Origin: an uncultured archaeon
GTDB lineage: Archaea > Asgardarchaeota > Jordiarchaeia > Jordiarchaeales > Jordiarchaeaceae
Length of the DNA: 32,000 nt
Direction of reading: 5' to 3'
NCBI GenBank assembly: GCA_964510585.1
Contig: CAZECW010000150.1
Span: forward strand, 4,239 to 36,238
Below, one piece after another: positions 18,729-31,312 of this stretch. A model generated the notes under the pieces. It saw nothing but the letters and a program-made list of their open reading frames with translations, searched no databases and was not told the DNA's origin. The position numbers and the translations under genes are program-made. The number at the start of each line of letters is the position of its first letter. The stretch's first letter is position 1.

Positions 18729-19964
18729 TTATGTAACCTCTGGTTTTGTTTCATGTTCACAATATTCGTCTCCTTTGGCAACACATTTTACTTCCTGTGT
18801 TGAGCACTTCCTTCCAGTTAGTATTTCGTAGAGTCCGGATATTATTCCGCTAAACCAGAATCCTATGGGTTTTCCAAAGTTTTGGAATTGGTTGCATATG
18901 GGGGAGTTTAAATGTTTTGTGCGGAGCATGTTAGTTGTATCATTGAGTTCGCCAATGAATCGGCCGAATCCTCTTAGTGAATTAAATTTAGTGTATATTG
19001 GTATCGCTTCGCTTAGACTTGGTTTGAATTGTCTCATGAAGTCTTCAACCACTACTCTGCTTCTCTTTTTGCCTTGATTGTAGATTATTTTGTACGTTTC
19101 TTCGTAGCCGAATTTTTCTATCATGGTCTTGATAAATTGTGCCATGTATCTGGTTTCACTTATAATCACTCTTGCACCTAAAAGTTCAACCACACCTCTT
19201 TCAGGCATCTTTAGGTGTTGCTTCATTCTGTGAAATTCTTCCATTATTTCTGTGCTTAATTCGATTCCTCTTCTCCCCACATTATAGAGAATGAGGTCGT
19301 CTACATAGTCCAGTGTGGGTGATTTGGAGACTCTGAGAAATCTTTTATAACTATTGTCCACCTCAAATATTTTAAGCTCAACAACATAATCAAAGATGTG
19401 CTTTAATGTGCTTATTATCGTGTCATCTAACATAGACTTGTTAAAAACGAAAAGCGATGTACCAAACTCACTTAGTAGAATCTTACTCTTGTATATCCAA
19501 TTAATAATTTTGTCTACATCCCTCCCTTTTGACAGCATAATGTTGCTCAAATAACACACATTAAAGCTATGCTCATATTTCTTCATGAATCGAATAGTCC
19601 CATGGAGATAAACGTCAAGATGAAGAATATCTCTTGGATCATCGATGATGAACTTTTCTTCGGATTGGAGTTTTTCGTACATGTTGGTGAAGCCGTCAAC
19701 CAGGAAAAACTTTTTTTCCTTCTCAAATTCTTCAAACCTAGAATTAAAAAACTTTAACCATTCCCTAATCCGCATTGGTGGTAAATCGAGGTCCAGAATT
19801 AATCCATAGTCTCCTTTTTTTAATCTAAAATCCATTATCTGCAAGGGCAAAATCTCACCCATAGTTCCGGTTTCAGTTAACAGTAGGACTTGGGCATTCT
19901 TCTCAAAACCGCCTCGTGTCAAAAAATCGAAGGCAGGAATGCCTGTACTTAACAACTCCATCAC
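18729..19964 (-). CDS. KaiC/RAD55-like (degenerate ATPase) domain fused to V4R domain, paralog 2
   Basis: LSTGIPAFDFLTRGGF, HIFDYVVEL, RFLRVSKS; C-terminal GFGRF, NSPIC, EVKCVAKGDEYCEH. Confidence 0.8.
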   Translation of the reverse strand: MMELLSTGIPAFDFLTRGGFEKNAQVLLLTETGTMGEILPLQIMDFRLKKGDYGLILDLDLPPMRIREWLKFFNSRFEEFEKEKKFFLVDGFTNMYEKLQSEEKFIIDDPRDILHLDVYLHGTIRFMKKYEHSFNVCYLSNIMLSKGRDVDKIINWIYKSKILLSEFGTSLFVFNKSMLDDTIISTLKHIFDYVVELKIFEVDNSYKRFLRVSKSPTLDYVDDLILYNVGRRGIELSTEIMEEFHRMKQHLKMPERGVVELLGARVIISETRYMAQFIKTMIEKFGYEETYKIIYNQGKKRSRVVVEDFMRQFKPSLSEAIPIYTKFNSLRGFGRFIGELNDTTNMLRTKHLNSPICNQFQNFGKPIGFWFSGIISGLYEILTGRKCSTQEVKCVAKGDEYCEHETKPEVT

Positions 19965-20017
19965 TATTCACCCAGGAAGCAAGTAAAAACTCGAGCCTAC
20001 ATTTTCACCTATAGCTT

Positions 20018-21280
20018 TCATACCCGTGAATGTTTTACGATAAATTCGCAATAATCATCCCCCTTTGCTACACATTTTATCTCTTCACACACGTAATGAT
20101 CTCCAGTAAAGATTTCGAAGGCCCCCGCTATTAGTCCCGCCCTGAGCCAACCAGTAGCCTTACCAAGACCTTTGAAATGTGAACAGAAAGGAGAATTTGC
20201 AACTCTAAACCTGTAACTATTTGTTTTTTCGTCAAATGTGAAGTCTGTGGCCCCCTGTCCCCAGAGCTCTGTTAGTTTAGCCAATGATTCAGCCGCCTTT
20301 TTAAGATCAGTTATTTTGAACTGCTCCCTGAAATCTTTAACTAATGGAAAGCCAACTTTTCCCTGATGGTACATAAACTTACTGGCCTCCTCGTATCCGA
20401 ACTCTTCTATCATCATTTCAAAAACCATAGGATAAAATTTTGGGTCCTGAATAATCACTCTCGATTCTAGAAATTCGAGGACGCCTTCTTCTAGCATTTT
20501 CAATTGTTGACTTATATAATCGAAATCCTCAACGGTTTTAGTACTCAGAGCAAATCCTGTGGGTCTTATCTCGTATGGAACAAAATCATCTCGATAAGTA
20601 GGAGATGGTGATTTAACCACCCTCAAATACTTCTGAAACTTTCTGTTCACCTCAAATATTTTAATGTCTAAAACGTAGTCGAACATATGCTCTAGGATTT
20701 TTTGGCTTCTTTCTTCCAGCATACCCTTATCTAAAACAAAGATACACAAGCCGAGCCGGCTAAATCTTGTTATCGCTTGATAAATGAAATTTATGACCTT
20801 GTCCAGTTGCCGTTTCCTAAATAGGAACAAGTTGCTGGAAAACACAAGAATACAAACATTGGGTTTTCGTTGCTCAATTATTTGTGAAAGTTCAGATAAG
20901 TAAGCATTGATGTGGACAATGTCTCTAGGTTTTTCTATTATATGTTCTTCGTTAGAGAGGGGCCCCTCGTACATCCTCGTAAAACCGTCTATCATAAAAA
21001 ACCGTCTATCTTTTTCCAACTCTTCAACGTTGAACTTTTTAAATTTAAACCATTCCCTAATTCTATTTGTGGGAATATCAAAATCTATTATGAAACCCGT
21101 ATCCCCCAGAAATAATCTATTAGCAAACAAGTTAAGAGCCACTATCTCTCCCATGCTTCCCGCTTCGATCAAAAAAAGAACAGAGGAATGCCTGAGAAAT
21201 CCACCGCCACTCAAACCATCTATTTCTAGATTCCCTGAACTAACTAATTCCACAAGGTTCCCCCTTTTGGAAGCTATCAC
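20018..21280 (-). CDS. KaiC/RAD55-like (degenerate ATPase) domain fused to V4R domain, paralog 1
   Basis: VSSGNLEIDGLSGGGF, LEHMFDYVLDI, KYLRVVKS; C-terminal WGQG, NSPFC, AGLIAGAFE, EEIKCVAKGDDYCEF. Confidence 0.8.
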   Translation of the reverse strand: MIASKRGNLVELVSSGNLEIDGLSGGGFLRHSSVLFLIEAGSMGEIVALNLFANRLFLGDTGFIIDFDIPTNRIREWFKFKKFNVEELEKDRRFFMIDGFTRMYEGPLSNEEHIIEKPRDIVHINAYLSELSQIIEQRKPNVCILVFSSNLFLFRKRQLDKVINFIYQAITRFSRLGLCIFVLDKGMLEERSQKILEHMFDYVLDIKIFEVNRKFQKYLRVVKSPSPTYRDDFVPYEIRPTGFALSTKTVEDFDYISQQLKMLEEGVLEFLESRVIIQDPKFYPMVFEMMIEEFGYEEASKFMYHQGKVGFPLVKDFREQFKITDLKKAAESLAKLTELWGQGATDFTFDEKTNSYRFRVANSPFCSHFKGLGKATGWLRAGLIAGAFEIFTGDHYVCEEIKCVAKGDDYCEFIVKHSRV

Positions 21281-22679: not shown

Positions 22680-23031
22680 CCTACTTCACTCTTTAAATTA
22701 AGAAAAAATAAGATCACCTTAAAAAATGTGCTGTACAAAAATATTTGCGTATACTTCTCAGATCAAGAACTGTATGTCTTGGCAACATTTCTCTTTGCTA
22801 TGAAACATATTTTCTTCCTTCACTCGTAGAAACATATGTGGAAGGGTTTGTGTAGAACGATAAAGACCAGAAGGGATGCAGAGGCAAAACTTTATTTATG
22901 AGCGAGAAGCAGATTGAAAACATATTTTTGATTCAAAAACTCTTAACCGTTATATCTTACGAAAAAATTATATCCTCTCTGAAGAATTGTCTCTTGCGAG
23001 TTTATAACACTTTTTAGGAGGTGTTTAAAAA

Positions 23032-24975
23032 ATATCTGAGAAAAGCGATATACGCATAGGTGTCTTTGTCTGCGGCTGAGGCACTAATATATCAGGCGTT
23101 ATCGATGTGAGAGCGTTAAAAGAATACGCTTCTACACTAGCAAACGTTGTTGTGGCTGAGGAGTCAACTTCGCTATGTACAGAAGCAGGCGCAAACCTCA
23201 TCAAAAAGAGCATTAATGAAAATAATTTGAATCGTATAGTAGTGGCGTCCTGCACTCCAATAACCCATGAATCAGTGTTTAAAGCAGTGCTGGAGGATGC
23301 GGGGCTAAATCCTGGATTGCTTGAATTCGTAAACATACGGGAACACGATGCATATGTTCACAGGAATCAACCGGAAGAAGCTCTGGAGAAGGCTAAAGAT
23401 CTAATCAGAGCCGGCGTGGCTCGTGCAAACTTTCTTGAAGAGATCCCCACAAGAGTAATACCCGTGGAGAGAAAATCTCTCGTTATTGGTGGAGGAATTT
23501 CAGGAATTCAAGCAGCTTTGAACCTTGCAAATGATGGTTTTGAAGTCTTTCTAGTTGAAAAGAGCCCTACCATAGGAGGAAAAATGGCTCAACTAGACAG
23601 AATCTTTCCAACGGATGACTGTGCGATATGAATTCTAGGTCCTAAAATGCTTGAAGTAGCAAGAGAACGTAATGTTAAATTATTAACCTACTCAGAAGTG
23701 GAGAAGATAGAAGGGTACTTGGGTAACTTTAAGGTGACAATTAAGAAGAAACCTAGGTACATCATCGCTGAAAAATGCAATGGTTGCGGTGTCTGTGAAG
23801 AGGTATGTCCAGTATTCAGACCAAAAGAGTTTGACGAAAATATGGGAATCAGAAAAGCAATCTACATTCCTTTCCCCCAAGCAGTGCCCAAAATAGCTAT
23901 AATCGATATGGAACACTGTATAAAGTGTCGACTCTGCGAAAAAGTGTGCGAATTTAAAGCAATTGACTTGGACCAAAAGGAAGAAAAAATAGAGTTAAGT
24001 GTAGGTACAATCATAGTCGCAACCGGATATGATCAGTATAATCCAGAAGGAAAATATGGTTATGGCAAGTATGAGAATGTCATTACACAGCTTCAACTGG
24101 AGCGATTACTTGCACCTAATGGACCAACCGGCGGCCACTTGGTGAAATTATCTGATTTGAAGAAACCTGAGAGTATTGTTATGATTCAATGTGTTGGCTC
24201 TAGAGATTTGAATTCCAATCAGTACTGCTCTGACGTATGCTGTATGGTGGCCATAAAGAATGCAAAGCTAATAAAGCAGGAATATCCAGACGTAGAGGTA
24301 ACAATCTGTTACATGGATATAAGGTGCGCAGGGAAGGCTTGGGAAGAATACTATACCAGAGCGAGAGAATATAACATAAAATTCATTAGGGGAAATGTCG
24401 GCTCAGTTAGAGAGAATCCCGAGACAAAGAAATTGATCGTTAGAGTTGAAGATACTCTGAACAGTGAGATAAAAAGGATAGAGGCTGATTTAGTGGTTCT
24501 TTCAGTTGCAATGGTTCCTTCCAAAGACTCCGAAAGGCTAGCAAGCATCCTGCGCCTAGATAGAAGTCCAGGAGGTTTCTATAAAGAGAGACACTCGGTG
24601 CTTAGTCCAATAGATACTAAGGTTCCAGGAATATACGTTGCAGGCGCGGCTCATGGACCCAAATCTGTACCAGAAGCTGTGGCTCATGCCAGTGGTGCAG
24701 CTGCTGCAGCAGCGATACCCCTAATTAAAGGTAGGTACACGATAGAACTCGTATCCGCTACAGTTGATAAAGATCGGTGTAATCTGTGTGAATTGTGCGT
24801 AAATGTATGTCCGATTGGTGCAATTACGGTCAAGGATGGTGCTATTGAGATTAATGAGATAATCTGTAAAGGTTGTGGTTCTTGCGCTTCGATGTGTCCT
24901 TCTAGAGCTATGACTGTGAGGTTTTACAGGCCAAAACAGTTTGAAACGTACATTGATGCTCTGTTTACAACTTAG
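23032..24975 (+). CDS. hdrA: Heterodisulfide reductase subunit A-like selenoprotein (Sec at codons 16 and 200), ~647 aa
   Basis: One continuous frame apart from TGA 23077-23079 (RIGVFVCG-U-GTNISG) and TGA 23629-23631 (TDDCAI-U-ILGPKM), both at conserved Cys positions; FAD motif, QCVGSR, ferredoxin domains; ATA start inferred. Confidence 0.9.
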
Positions 24976-24989
24976 TCGGGGTGTTCTTT

Positions 24990-25421
24990 ATGAGTTTAAA
25001 TTTTGAAGTTTTCACTCCCAAAATTGCTGCGTTCTTATGCTTGAAGTGAGGTTACGGTGCAGCTGATATGGCTGGAACAATCAGAAGCCAATACCCAACA
25101 TCAATAAGAGCGGTTAAGGTTAGGTGTTTAGGCATTGTGCATCCTGACTACATACTAAGGGCTTTATGCAAAGGAGCAGATGGGGTACTTTTAATAGGGT
25201 GACGAATAGGAGAATGCGACTATGAAACAGGGAACATATCTGCAACTAAACATGTGGGATACTTAAAACAGGTATTGCGTGCTATAGGATTAAGTGAAGA
25301 ACGTTTGCAAATTTACTACTGTTCCTCAGCAGAGGGATCATTATTCGCTGAAATAATCAAAAAGGTAACAGAAGTGATCGCGAAACTAGGACCCAATCCA
25401 ATTAGGCAAACTAAAAGCTAA
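24990..25421 (+). CDS. mvhD: MvhD/VhuD [2Fe-2S] subunit, selenoprotein (Sec at codons 20 and 71), 143 aa; absent from ORF track
   Basis: MSLNFEVFTPKIAAFLCLK-U-GYGAADMAG...VRCLG...GADGVLLIG-U-RIGECDYETGN...CSSAEG...LGPNP; TGA at 25047 and 25200, TAA 25419-25421. Confidence 0.93.
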
Positions 25422-25466
25422 GTAGTGTGAGCCTCGTAGGTAAACCTTTGACTATGAGGGGACTAC
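25422..25466 (+). promoter_or_regulatory. Putative SECIS element (eukaryote/Asgard-type kink-turn hairpin) in the mvhD 3' UTR
   Basis: GUAG/CUAC stem, UGU bulge, tandem GA/GA (GUGA...GGAC), CCUCGUAG/CUAUGAGG helix, AAA in apical loop. Confidence 0.75.
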
Positions 25467-25507
25467 CCCCTTAAGGCGAGGGGAAGCTATGACTAATCTA
25501 CTCTCAA

Positions 25508-26623
25508 ATGAAAGTTAATGGAACGGGAATTTCGGAATTGAAGACAGGTGACTATGTAATAGCGAGCAGTAAGGACGAAAGATTATCTGCAACATATGGA
25601 GGAGGAGCCATCCAAACTATTCTCAAAAAAATGCTGGAAAATAAATTTGTGGAAAAAGTTGTGCTTTTTCAAGAAAAAAAGGATAGATACAGTCTGGCTC
25701 CAGTAGTAATAGAAAATCCAGACCAACTAACCTCTATACCTCTTTCTCAATTCAGTGCGTACTACCTTTCTGGACTTAATAGTGTGCCCAAATATATCCA
25801 GCAGAATTTAAAAAACGCTGGAAAAATAGGTGTTATAGCAAAGCCATGCGATATTAGAGCTATGGTTGAACTAGAAAAAAGGAAGCAAGCAAATTTAGAT
25901 AACTTGGTAATTTTGGGGGAGGAATGTCACGGCAAGGTTTCACCAAAAAAGGTTCAAAAAATATTAGAGGAAGAACGGGTTGACGCAAGTAAAGTAATTA
26001 GTGAGATGATAGACGGCAATAAGTTTAATATTAGTTTTGAGGGTGGAAACAAAAATTATATTTTGGGGAAGAAGCTTGATTTGGAAGAGAGTTGTAAAAG
26101 GTGTGGGGAGAGGGAACCAAATATTTCAGACATTTCATTTCAAGTTGTTAAGGACAACGATAAAACAAAAACTTTAATACATATAAACTCAGAAAGGGGA
26201 TTAAAAATTATTAAGTTAAGCTCAGAAGAATTGAACTTGGAAAAAGCAAAGGAAGAAGTGTTGGAACACGCTGAGAGAAATATGGCTCTATCAATTTTGA
26301 AGGCAGAAAGGTACAAATTAAAACAATTTAAAAATTTTGATAAATTATCCGAGGTAGAGGCATATAACTATTTCAAGAAATTAATTGAAAATTGTAGGAA
26401 ATGCGGAAACTGCATAAGGGCATGCCCAATCTGTGTCTGCTTAGATTGTACAGTAATTAAGCAGAGGAAGGAAATAGAACCAACTTTATACTTCCTACTT
26501 AGGATGGGACACATGGGCAAAGCATGCGTAAATTGCGGCATCTGCGATTCATCATGTAATTTTCTGGATCTGGGGCCGAGCCTGATATTCCATAGGCTTA
26601 GCGAAATTTCTAAAAAAGGATGA
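25508..26623 (+). CDS. FdhB/FrhB-like F420-interacting beta subunit with C-terminal 2x[4Fe-4S]
   Basis: GGGAIQTILKKML, KPCDIRAMVELEKRKQ, LGEECHG, CKRC, CRKCGNCIRACPICVC, CVNCGICDSSC. Confidence 0.8.
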   Translation: MKVNGTGISELKTGDYVIASSKDERLSATYGGGAIQTILKKMLENKFVEKVVLFQEKKDRYSLAPVVIENPDQLTSIPLSQFSAYYLSGLNSVPKYIQQNLKNAGKIGVIAKPCDIRAMVELEKRKQANLDNLVILGEECHGKVSPKKVQKILEEERVDASKVISEMIDGNKFNISFEGGNKNYILGKKLDLEESCKRCGEREPNISDISFQVVKDNDKTKTLIHINSERGLKIIKLSSEELNLEKAKEEVLEHAERNMALSILKAERYKLKQFKNFDKLSEVEAYNYFKKLIENCRKCGNCIRACPICVCLDCTVIKQRKEIEPTLYFLLRMGHMGKACVNCGICDSSCNFLDLGPSLIFHRLSEISKKG

Positions 26624-26743: not shown

Positions 26744-27412
26744 TTACTTTGTTGGTTTCTTTAACTTCTCTAAGATCTCGTCCCATATTCGTGTGTGTTC
26801 CCCTGAATAGTGGAATTTGTTTCTTTCTATTTCTATAACATCCTTAACGGGGCAACTGTTAATACAAGCTCCACAAAGAATACATTTTTCTTTGTCAATT
26901 TCAACCTTTCCCGACTTCTCCCAGCTCTTTCTTTTCGGGATACTTAACGCCCCGACTGGGCATATCTCCACACATGTGGAGCATCCTCCTGGACACTTTT
27001 CGTTGTGTATTTTTATCTCTCCCTCGAAAAACTTGTATGCTTTTCGGCCTGTTTTCTCACAGTATACTTCTGTTTTTTCAATTTTGGGCAAGGCTCCTTT
27101 CTCAAGAATTATAAGTTCATGTTCTCCATCTATGGTCAGCTCGAAACACTCAAATGGGCATAATATTTCACAGACACCGCAGAAGGAACACTTTTTTTGA
27201 TCTATTACTACTGTGGGGGCACTTGTTAAACCCTTCAGGGAGGCTCCTACTGGTCCACGCTGTATAGCTTGCTTTGGACAGGCTGTTAAACAGATTCCGC
27301 ATCCAATGCACTTGTTTCGGTCAAATGTAAGTTTTAGGTGTTTTGTCAACATTTTCAATTCAATAACCACTTTGTCAGTGTCTACTGTTTTTGAAAATGC
27401 TGGAATTGCCAA
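26744..27412 (-). CDS. Polyferredoxin (4x[4Fe-4S], FwdF-like)
   Basis: CIGCGICLTACP, CSFCGVCEILCP, CPGGCSTCVEICP, CILCGACINSCP; start placed at TTG 27412 after AAGGTG (alternative starts up to 27463). Confidence 0.8.
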   Translation of the reverse strand: MAIPAFSKTVDTDKVVIELKMLTKHLKLTFDRNKCIGCGICLTACPKQAIQRGPVGASLKGLTSAPTVVIDQKKCSFCGVCEILCPFECFELTIDGEHELIILEKGALPKIEKTEVYCEKTGRKAYKFFEGEIKIHNEKCPGGCSTCVEICPVGALSIPKRKSWEKSGKVEIDKEKCILCGACINSCPVKDVIEIERNKFHYSGEHTRIWDEILEKLKKPTK

Positions 27413-27629
27413 GATAGACACCTTGTAACTTTTCATTATCTTCCAATACATAAAATTGTCCAACCTTTAAAACTATCGAATTTTTTAAGGAATACCAGAA
27501 ATTTTTTATAATCATACTCTAACTGTAAAGTGGAGATCAAGGAAAAGTTATGTATATTCAAATTTGTTTTGGTTAACCATGAATTTGGGGACCGCATAGA
27601 ATAAACTTTTATGTGGATGAGGTGTAAAA

Positions 27630-30469: not shown

Positions 30470-31312
30470 GTGGTCTCCCAAGTGATGAATTTGTCTAATA
30501 ACGAGAAAACATGGTTCGAAAAGGAGTATAAAGTGGCTTGGAAAATAGCTACTGAGGCGATTAACTTAGAGAAAAGGGAGCAATTCAAAGAAGCGAGTGA
30601 GAATTACAGAAAATCGGCTGAAATACTTTCCAAATTACTAGAAAAACCAATAAAGCAAGAATTAGGAAACTCAATTAGAACCAAAATTTATGAGTATAAG
30701 GAAAGAGCCGAACTATTAGAAAGCATTTATGAAAAACAAAAGGAAGGTATGCAACCCCAGAAAACTGAAACCATGAGTATGGTTTTGCACGGACCAGAAA
30801 TCGGCTTAAAGGCAATCCAAATCTTGAGGGAGGCATCAAGCGAAATAATGATTATGAGCTACCTGCTCTTCGAAGTTAAAACCCTAAGGGCAGAAAATAA
30901 AATCTACCGAATCGACCTTCTCGACACCCTTATCCAAAAATCGAAAAACGGAGTAAATATTAGAATAATCACCTCTCCACCAGACGTTCAAGTATTGGGA
31001 AAAAATGCCTGGAAGCAGGGCAACGCCCTCACAAAGCTATTATCCGAATCTAACATACAAATTAAGCTTTGCAGCTTTGCCCACACCAAATTCATAGTTG
31101 CAGACGGATTAGTGGTCTTTCGAGGCAGCGCCAACCTAACCAGCAGCGGTCTTTCCGGTAAAGGAGACGTGGCCGAGGCAACAAATGACGAGCGCATCAT
31201 AAATTACTACTCCACAATATTCGAAGAACGATGGCGCAACACGAGTAAGAGTTGTCAAGATTGTACCGAAAAATCCTGCCTCAAAGAATATCAGATTTCC
31301 AAGCAACAATAA
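30470..31312 (+). CDS. MIT domain + phospholipase D-like (single HKD) domain protein
   Basis: N-terminal AWKIATEAINLEKREQFKEASENYRKSAEIL...IRTKIYEYKERAELL (MIT pattern); C-terminal HTKFIVAD and GSANLT; terminal CQDCTEKSC. Confidence 0.8.
   Translation: MVSQVMNLSNNEKTWFEKEYKVAWKIATEAINLEKREQFKEASENYRKSAEILSKLLEKPIKQELGNSIRTKIYEYKERAELLESIYEKQKEGMQPQKTETMSMVLHGPEIGLKAIQILREASSEIMIMSYLLFEVKTLRAENKIYRIDLLDTLIQKSKNGVNIRIITSPPDVQVLGKNAWKQGNALTKLLSESNIQIKLCSFAHTKFIVADGLVVFRGSANLTSSGLSGKGDVAEATNDERIINYYSTIFEERWRNTSKSCQDCTEKSCLKEYQISKQQ

What the first reader, a model, noticed from the sequence alone, without database searches (positions are those of the whole stretch)
24990..25421. Hidden two-Sec mvhD gene
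Seen: a complete MvhD frame interrupted only by TGA 25047 (CLK-U-GY) and TGA 25200 (IG-U-RIGEC), so no ORF was called. Known: these match the two Sec sites of VhuD-type selenoproteins. Standard annotation would miss the gene or call it a pseudogene.
Basis: partly seen in the sequence, partly recalled or inferred. Interest (0 to 1): 0.7.

Follow-up and report, generated by a model that had tools for sequence, protein, structure and literature searches.

The report
Two-selenocysteine MvhD of an Asgard archaeon
This is an intact gene for a small iron-sulfur electron-relay protein (MvhD) whose two internal TGA codons are very likely read as selenocysteine, an arrangement already published for this group of archaea, so the finding is correct but ordinary.

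Summary
Confirmed, and of a published kind. Window 24990-25421 is an intact mvhD/vhuD. Its TGA codons 20 and 71 align with the two X (Sec) positions of Methanococcus VhuD in PDB 9SFI. The same two columns are TGA/TGA in 90 and Cys/Cys in 19 of 114 related loci. The genome is Jordarchaeia (Asgard) and holds SepSecS, EFSec, PSTK, Sec-SelD and an intron-split tRNA-Sec. Likely job: relaying electrons from F420H2 to the bifurcating flavin of HdrA, not a hydrogenase subunit. Sec-hdrA/Sec-mvhD pairs sharing a SECIS are published (Mariotti 2016; Sun 2021 for Jordarchaeia; Huang 2024). This scan already noted the paralogous pair in this genome, and the three-armed SECIS and FdhB module in another genome. 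The most interesting by-product is not in the window: in 5 of 5 genomes of the sister family, the orthologous gene carries a 21-22 nt bulge-helix-bulge intron just before the first Sec codon.

The parts
24990..25421 (+). mvhD/vhuD-type gene, 143 aa, predicted [2Fe-2S] adaptor with two Sec
25047..25049 (+). TGA = Sec20 (CxxU motif)
   Evidence: aligns with first X of 9sfi_K; column U/C
25200..25202 (+). TGA = Sec71, in one of four invariant Cys/Sec columns; inferred [2Fe-2S] ligand
   Evidence: ligand numbering of 5ODC is recalled, not seen in a call (one search found nothing)
24978..24983 (+). Shine-Dalgarno-like GGGGTG in the 14-nt hdrA-mvhD gap
   Evidence: sequence
23032..24975 (+). hdrA, 647 aa, with two in-frame TGA (Sec16, Sec200); best start candidate is ATA behind GGAGGTG
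23077..23079 (+). hdrA TGA = Sec16 (N-terminal CxU)
   Evidence: aligns with Cys in 9sfi_A; TGA in most related loci that cover it
23629..23631 (+). hdrA TGA = Sec200 (canonical site)
   Evidence: aligns with X of 9sfi_A; Sec197 in PMC13518236
25427..25462 (+). Type I eukaryote-like SECIS: GUGA core, 9-nt stem strand, 12-nt loop starting GUAAA, GA
25416..25488 (+). Predicted three-way junction around the SECIS: outer helix 25416-25419/25485-25488, extra hairpin 25467-25483
25508..26623 (+). FdhB/ElpB-like protein (FrhB_FdhB N and C domains, ferredoxin Cys motifs), 371 aa; likely F420H2-oxidising partner
26744..27463 (-). FwdF-like polyferredoxin, convergent with the hdrA-mvhD-fdhB block
   Evidence: NF042909 E 7.5e-41, below curated cut-off

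Best explanation
The stretch is an intact MvhD gene whose two TGA codons are very likely recoded as selenocysteine, and whose product likely relays electrons from the neighbouring FdhB-like flavoprotein to the bifurcating flavin of the neighbouring HdrA. Shown: intact frame, MvhD fold, TGA at conserved Cys/Sec columns, SECIS hairpin with covarying stem, decoding genes in the genome, gene order hdrA-mvhD-SECIS-fdhB-like. Inferred: (1) hdrA and mvhD share one mRNA; (2) the single SECIS directs Sec-tRNA/EFSec to all four UGAs, the farthest 2.35 kb upstream; (3) Cys17, Cys46, Sec71 and Cys76 hold a [2Fe-2S] cluster, with Sec20 beside it; (4) the FdhB-like protein takes a hydride from F420H2 at FAD and passes electrons via its [4Fe-4S] chain and MvhD to HdrA, as in the Fdh-Hdr and Elp-Hdr complexes of methanogens; (5) the low-potential branch likely goes to Fwd through a FwdF-type polyferredoxin and the high-potential branch to an HdrBC/HdrD-type disulfide reductase encoded elsewhere, or the flow runs in reverse.
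For: Recoding: (columns); a SECIS-like hit near the stop in 81 of 93 Sec loci vs 1 of 21 Cys loci (loose scan; at least 5 hits are off-register and both closest orthologues were missed because of a bulge); a strict scan finds 4 elements in the 3.78-Mb genome, 3 of them directly behind Sec-hdrA or Sec-mvhD, and 0 in reversed/complemented controls; 95.7% of cells paired, 7 of 8 pairs with double-sided changes, covariation 0.88 vs 0.12-0.29 for slid partners (32 hand-picked sequences). Machinery: SepSecS, EFSec/SelB, PSTK (25, below cut-off), SelD with GUSCK, tRNA-Sec recognised by ARAGORN once two bulge-helix-bulge introns are removed. TGA is an ordinary stop here: 298 of 1457 long stop-free frames end in TGA. 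Partner: best PDB hits of the downstream ORF are FdhB/ElpB chains (7bkb_E E 1.7e-43); in 14 of the 18 other genomes with a hit to it (of 40 searched) it lies right behind a Sec-type mvhD; cofE present. Mechanism: PMC12350162 and PMC6019823 passages.
Against: No RNA or protein evidence of read-through. tRNA-Sec was missed by Rfam RF01852 and rests on predicted splicing. SelD has a 30-nt in-frame insertion with a TAA and needs predicted splicing too. The SECIS alone is only modestly stable (z -1.6 to -2.0). No fdhA/elpA, mvhAG or hdrBC gene is adjacent: molybdopterin genes lie on other contigs. The fdhB link is not universal: only 18 of 91 Sec-mvhD loci with enough downstream DNA have it (duplicates included), and in G001, G003 and G005 the closest Sec-mvhD lies apart from the fdhB orthologue. 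The genome has 12 MvhD-like loci, so partners could mix.
Confidence: 0.85

Rival explanations
1. Recoding as described, but this MvhD works mainly as the adaptor for a [NiFe]/[NiFeSe] hydrogenase (Mvh/Vhu) encoded elsewhere, as VhuD does in Methanococcus; the FdhB-like neighbour is an occasional or separate partner.
For: M. maripaludis VhuD binds both Vhu and Fdh (PMC6019823, PMC13518236 passages). Jordarchaeia are described with HdrABC-MvhADG (PMC9723677). Most Lokiarchaeia Sec-mvhD loci lack the fdhB neighbour.
Against: No hydrogenase gene is adjacent. The fdhB-like gene follows Sec-mvhD in several Asgard families, and the genome has many Cys MvhD paralogues that could serve a hydrogenase.
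Confidence: 0.2
2. Pseudogene or assembly error: two nonsense mutations in a decaying mvhD.
For: A broken mvhD fragment exists elsewhere in the genome (L014, C179), so decay of such copies happens.
Against: Both stops are TGA, on conserved Cys columns, shared with 90 other loci; the SECIS is intact; synonymous changes dominate.
Confidence: 0.01
3. Genome-wide reassignment of TGA (Trp, Gly or Cys) rather than Sec recoding.
For: None beyond the in-frame TGAs themselves.
Against: 298 of 1457 long frames end in TGA; Cys paralogues end in TGA; TGAs in mvhD and hdrA fall only on Cys columns.
Confidence: 0.01

Closest known systems
Asgard Sec-HdrA/Sec-VhuD(MvhD, 'FrhD') tandem pairs sharing one eukaryote-like SECIS (Mariotti 2016 PMC4989117; Sun 2021 PMC9723677 for Jordarchaeia; Huang 2024 PMC11227280)
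   Same: Two Sec in MvhD, multi-Sec HdrA directly upstream ending in TAG, short gap, single type I SECIS behind mvhD, G(U/G)AAA loop variant. Huang's supplement holds a Jordarchaeia Sec-MvhD fragment very like this clade.
   Different: GUGA core (Huang's text names it for Thorarchaeia selD and Methanopyrus selD, not for Asgard hdrA/mvhD; orthologues here have AUGA). The third hairpin and the FdhB-like neighbour do not appear in the passages I read.
Methanococcus maripaludis VhuD (PDB 9SFI chain K; Hdr-Vhu-Fwd assembly, PMC13518236)
   Same: Same fold family and the same two Sec columns; its HdrA Sec197 equals Sec200 here.
   Different: Not in a vhu hydrogenase operon; eukaryote-like rather than methanogen-type SECIS; below the NCBIfam VhuD cut-off (145 vs 215 bits); the host lineage is described as non-methanogenic.
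Fdh-MvhD-Hdr (7BKB) and Elp-Hdr (8RVU, PMC12350162) F420H2-input arms
   Same: FdhB/ElpB-like + MvhD/ElpC + HdrA set; ferredoxin Cys motifs kept in the alignment to 7bkb_E.
   Different: No adjacent FdhA/ElpA or HdrBC; MvhD and HdrA are selenoproteins; activity untested.

Membership tests
MvhD/FlpD (PF02662) | Profile match over the curated cut-off, full length | tested here: met
   140.9 bits vs 22.3, profile 1-123/123
MvhD/FlpD (PF02662) | MvhD fold | tested here: met
   Model pLDDT 90.6; TM 0.86-0.91 to MvhD/ElpC chains
MvhD/FlpD (PF02662) | Four Cys/Sec ligands for a [2Fe-2S] cluster | tested here: met
   Columns 17, 46, 71, 76 invariant in 44 sequences, U read as C; which residues bind iron is inferred and recalled
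MvhD/FlpD (PF02662) | Binds [2Fe-2S] and relays electrons to HdrA | not testable with these tools
   Needs biochemistry
Two-Sec VhuD-type selenoprotein | TGA at both VhuD Sec columns | tested here: met
Two-Sec VhuD-type selenoprotein | Sec machinery in the genome (SepSecS, EFSec, PSTK, SelD, tRNA-Sec) | tested here: met
   PSTK below its cut-off; tRNA-Sec and SelD need predicted intron removal
Asgard type I eSECIS-like element | (A/G)UGA core, 7-15 bp stem, 8-20 nt loop with adenines, GA/AA, near the 3' end of the gene | tested here: met
   model in PMC11227280
Two-Sec VhuD-type selenoprotein | Selenium actually incorporated | not testable with these tools
   Needs proteomics or 75Se labelling
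NCBIfam VhuD NF045873 (Methanococcales hydrogenase subunit) | Score over 215 bits | tested here: not met
   145.1 bits; not filed under this model
Elp-Hdr / Fdh-Hdr complex | FdhB/ElpB homologue next to MvhD and HdrA | tested here: met
Elp-Hdr / Fdh-Hdr complex | FdhA or ElpA subunit in the cluster | tested here: not met
   None in the window; molybdopterin-family genes only on other contigs. It works like this complex but is not filed as a member

The most novel reading that the evidence does not exclude
The Sec-HdrA / Sec-MvhD / FdhB-like trio is an old Asgard electron-bifurcation arm that runs on F420H2 without hydrogenase and without FdhA/ElpA, and feeds Fwd in non-methanogenic archaea. 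All four of its UGA codons are decoded by one three-armed SECIS, and in the sister family the same mRNA must first be spliced by the tRNA endonuclease right at the first Sec codon of mvhD.
Probability: 0.4. Interest if true: 0.55.

Novelty: new member of a known kind. Interest (0 to 1): 0.2.

Why it matters
For annotation: standard gene calls drop this mvhD and cut hdrA to a 442-aa piece, which hides a complete redox module. As biology the recoding is published for this lineage. What adds value is the context: a conserved FdhB-like partner points to F420H2-driven bifurcation outside methanogens, and the intron in the sister-family orthologue would be an archaeal mRNA intron beyond cbf5, placed against a Sec codon.

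Tried and rejected
Rfam scan of the window: no family. RF01852 found no tRNA-Sec in G000 and none over cut-off in 5 relatives; default ARAGORN gave only 6 tRNAs and a relaxed run gave noise. This fits the heavy non-canonical tRNA introns reported for Freyarchaeia (PMC11291895). Sequencing runs: no RNA holder listed, so expression and splicing were not examined. A literature search for MvhD ligand numbers found nothing relevant. Exact look-up of the read-through protein was negative but uninformative, because U is passed as C. Complex prediction of MvhD with the FdhB-like protein was not run, so binding is open. My automatic bulge-helix-bulge finder missed the tRNA and selD introns; these were placed by hand. 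The second SECIS-locating regex returned none for 35 loci and several off-register hits; I chose 32 well-registered ones by eye, so those counts are for a selected set. The tree (56 rows, residues after codon 20 only) separates Sec-type from Cys-type MvhD (100/99), but the fdhB-linked copies do not form one clade. Pseudogene and TGA reassignment were rejected (see rivals).

Full report
Observation. The frame 24990-25421 translates to 143 residues with TGA at codons 20 (25047) and 71 (25200) and no other break. Table 11 lists no ORF of 80 aa or more there. Read through, it is a full-length PF02662 member. Its model (U as C) superposes on MvhD/ElpC chains of 7BKB, 5ODC and 8RVU. Both TGAs align with the X residues of the M. 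maripaludis VhuD chain 9sfi_K and with Cys in 7bkb_F and 9sw2_D. Of 114 distinct related loci other than the window gene (chosen by similarity), 90 have TGA at both columns, 19 Cys at both, 2 TGA/Cys and 3 are fragments or divergent; no TGA occurs in another column. Both closest orthologues keep both TGAs, with synonymous changes in excess in the two long segments.

Organism and decoding. The closest named relatives are Jordarchaeia/Freyarchaeota records at 66-82% identity. The genome (96% complete) holds SepSecS, EFSec and PSTK on contig C146 and SelD with GUSCK on C193. Rfam missed tRNA-Sec. Prompted by an earlier scan note, I found a 154-nt precursor at C146:17103-17256 (minus). After removal of a 28-nt and a 33-nt intron at bulge-helix-bulge cut sites it folds as a 93-nt tRNA that ARAGORN calls SeC(tca); unspliced, nothing is called. 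TGA is otherwise a normal stop: 298 of 1457 stop-free frames of 300 codons or more end in it.

Surroundings. Fourteen bases upstream ends hdrA (23032-24975), itself broken by TGA at codons 16 and 200. Codon 200 is the canonical Sec (X in 9sfi_A); codon 16 is TGA in most related loci that cover it. hdrA lies directly upstream in 96 of 97 Sec-mvhD loci with enough flank (duplicates included). Six bases after the mvhD stop begins a type I eukaryote-like SECIS (25427-25462). A strict genome scan finds 4 such elements, 3 behind Sec-hdrA or Sec-mvhD genes, only one on this contig, and none in controls. So this pair shares one element for four UGAs, whereas the C76 pair has one behind each gene. The stem covaries strongly across 32 selected Asgard loci. 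In 31 of those 32 a constrained fold closes a three-way junction with an extra hairpin, against 18% when the 3' tail is shuffled; earlier scan notes had already reported this arm. Downstream lies an FdhB/ElpB-like gene. In 14 of the 18 other genomes with a hit to it (40 searched) it directly follows a Sec-type mvhD, across several Asgard families. Most Lokiarchaeia Sec-mvhD loci belong to a paralogous group without it (18 of 91 loci have it). In G021 and G028 the trio sits between a fwdF-like gene and ORFs I read by eye as fwdA (and fwdC in G021) (no profile scan). In the window a fwdF-like gene faces it. cofE is present; FdhA-family and HdrB/D-type genes lie elsewhere.

How it likely works. 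One mRNA carries hdrA and mvhD; the SECIS recruits EFSec and Sec-tRNA so that four UGAs are read as Sec (inferred from PMC4989117, passages). MvhD holds a [2Fe-2S] cluster through the four invariant columns 17, 46, 71 and 76 (ligand identity inferred and recalled), so Sec71 would be a ligand and Sec20 a neighbour. By homology with Fdh-Hdr and Elp-Hdr (PMC12350162, passages), the FdhB-like protein would oxidise F420H2 and pass electrons through MvhD to the HdrA flavin, which splits them towards Fwd and a disulfide reductase, or the reverse. My confidence is about 0.97 for Sec recoding and about 0.6 for the FdhB partner as the main one. The rival is a hydrogenase adaptor, as VhuD serves both Vhu and Fdh in M. 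maripaludis.

What is known. Two-Sec VhuD behind multi-Sec HdrA with a shared SECIS: Mariotti 2016 (passages). MvhD, HdrA and Prx as Jordarchaeia selenoproteins: Sun 2021 (passages). Survey of 409 Asgard genomes with the same families and the G(U/G)AAA loop variant: Huang 2024 (parts 1-4 of 7, passages and one supplement search, which shows a Jordarchaeia Sec-MvhD fragment). Sec machinery and heavy tRNA introns in Freyarchaeia: PMC11291895 (passages). Also seen as passages: PMC13518236, PMC13188914, PMC6019823, PMC12397907, PMC13580544; abstract only: PMC2738675. I found no paper on the FdhB-linked Asgard module (search listing) or on an mvhD intron (listings). The library lacks most subscription papers, and the figures and most supplements of the Sec surveys were not seen, so these may show either.

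By-product. In all 5 genomes of the sister family, and in 0 of 6 of the window's family, the orthologous mvhD has a 21-22 nt insertion two codons before the first Sec. It folds as a bulge-helix-bulge with variable but paired inner arms, and the UGA lies in the outer helix. Four of the five insertions shift the frame. Removal at the canonical cut sites restores FLCWKUGYG and an open frame in all five. The window gene has no such insertion.

Verdict. It is a new member of a published kind; interest 0.2.

Noticed in passing
L046-L050 / L173-L177 (G006:C1:441227-441267, G008:C96:3170-3211, G009:C7:13024-13065, G007:C4:86458-86499, G010:C154:8377-8418): Orthologous Sec-mvhD of the sister family carries a 21-22 nt bulge-helix-bulge intron just before the first Sec codon (5 of 5 genomes vs 0 of 6 in the window's family); 4 of 5 are frameshifting and removal restores the frame. 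Likely an archaeal mRNA intron beyond cbf5; not found in searches.
   Followed up: partly
G000:C146:17103-17256 (minus), L144: tRNA-Sec gene split by two bulge-helix-bulge introns (D loop 28 nt, T loop 33 nt), invisible to Rfam and ARAGORN until spliced.
   Followed up: yes
G000:C193 about 53620-53660 (L015): selD has a 30-nt in-frame insertion with a TAA that folds as a hairpin between two bulges, likely another mRNA intron; already noted by an earlier scan report.
   Followed up: partly
window 23017-23034: hdrA has no in-frame ATG/GTG/TTG; the best start is ATA 8 nt behind GGAGGTG, and close orthologues have ATT at the same place (two also have an in-frame ATG/GTG upstream).
   Followed up: partly
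L037-L039 (G005, G003, G001): The closest Sec-mvhD is not next to the fdhB orthologue; in G005 it is fused in frame to hdrA (long read-through frames suggest the same in G003 and G001), and a partial mvhD remnant lies before fdhB in G005.
   Followed up: partly
window 23032-26623 vs L168 (G005): The hdrA-mvhD-fdhB block looks inverted between panB and the fwdF-like gene relative to G005, where fwdF-like and fdhB-like run the same way.
   Followed up: partly
G000:C76:13316-17221 (L167, L010): Second Sec-hdrA/Sec-mvhD pair, each gene with its own SECIS, followed by another FrhB/FdhB-family gene.
   Followed up: partly
G000:C179:776-1036 (L014): Broken mvhD fragment with TGA, TAG and TAA and a degenerate SECIS-like tail, probably a decayed copy.
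   Followed up: no
window 18729-21280 (minus): Two tandem KaiC-like ATPase plus V4R-domain genes; four similar-looking ORFs follow the C76 Sec pair.
   Followed up: no
window 30470-31312: MIT-domain plus PLD-like domain fusion protein.
   Followed up: no
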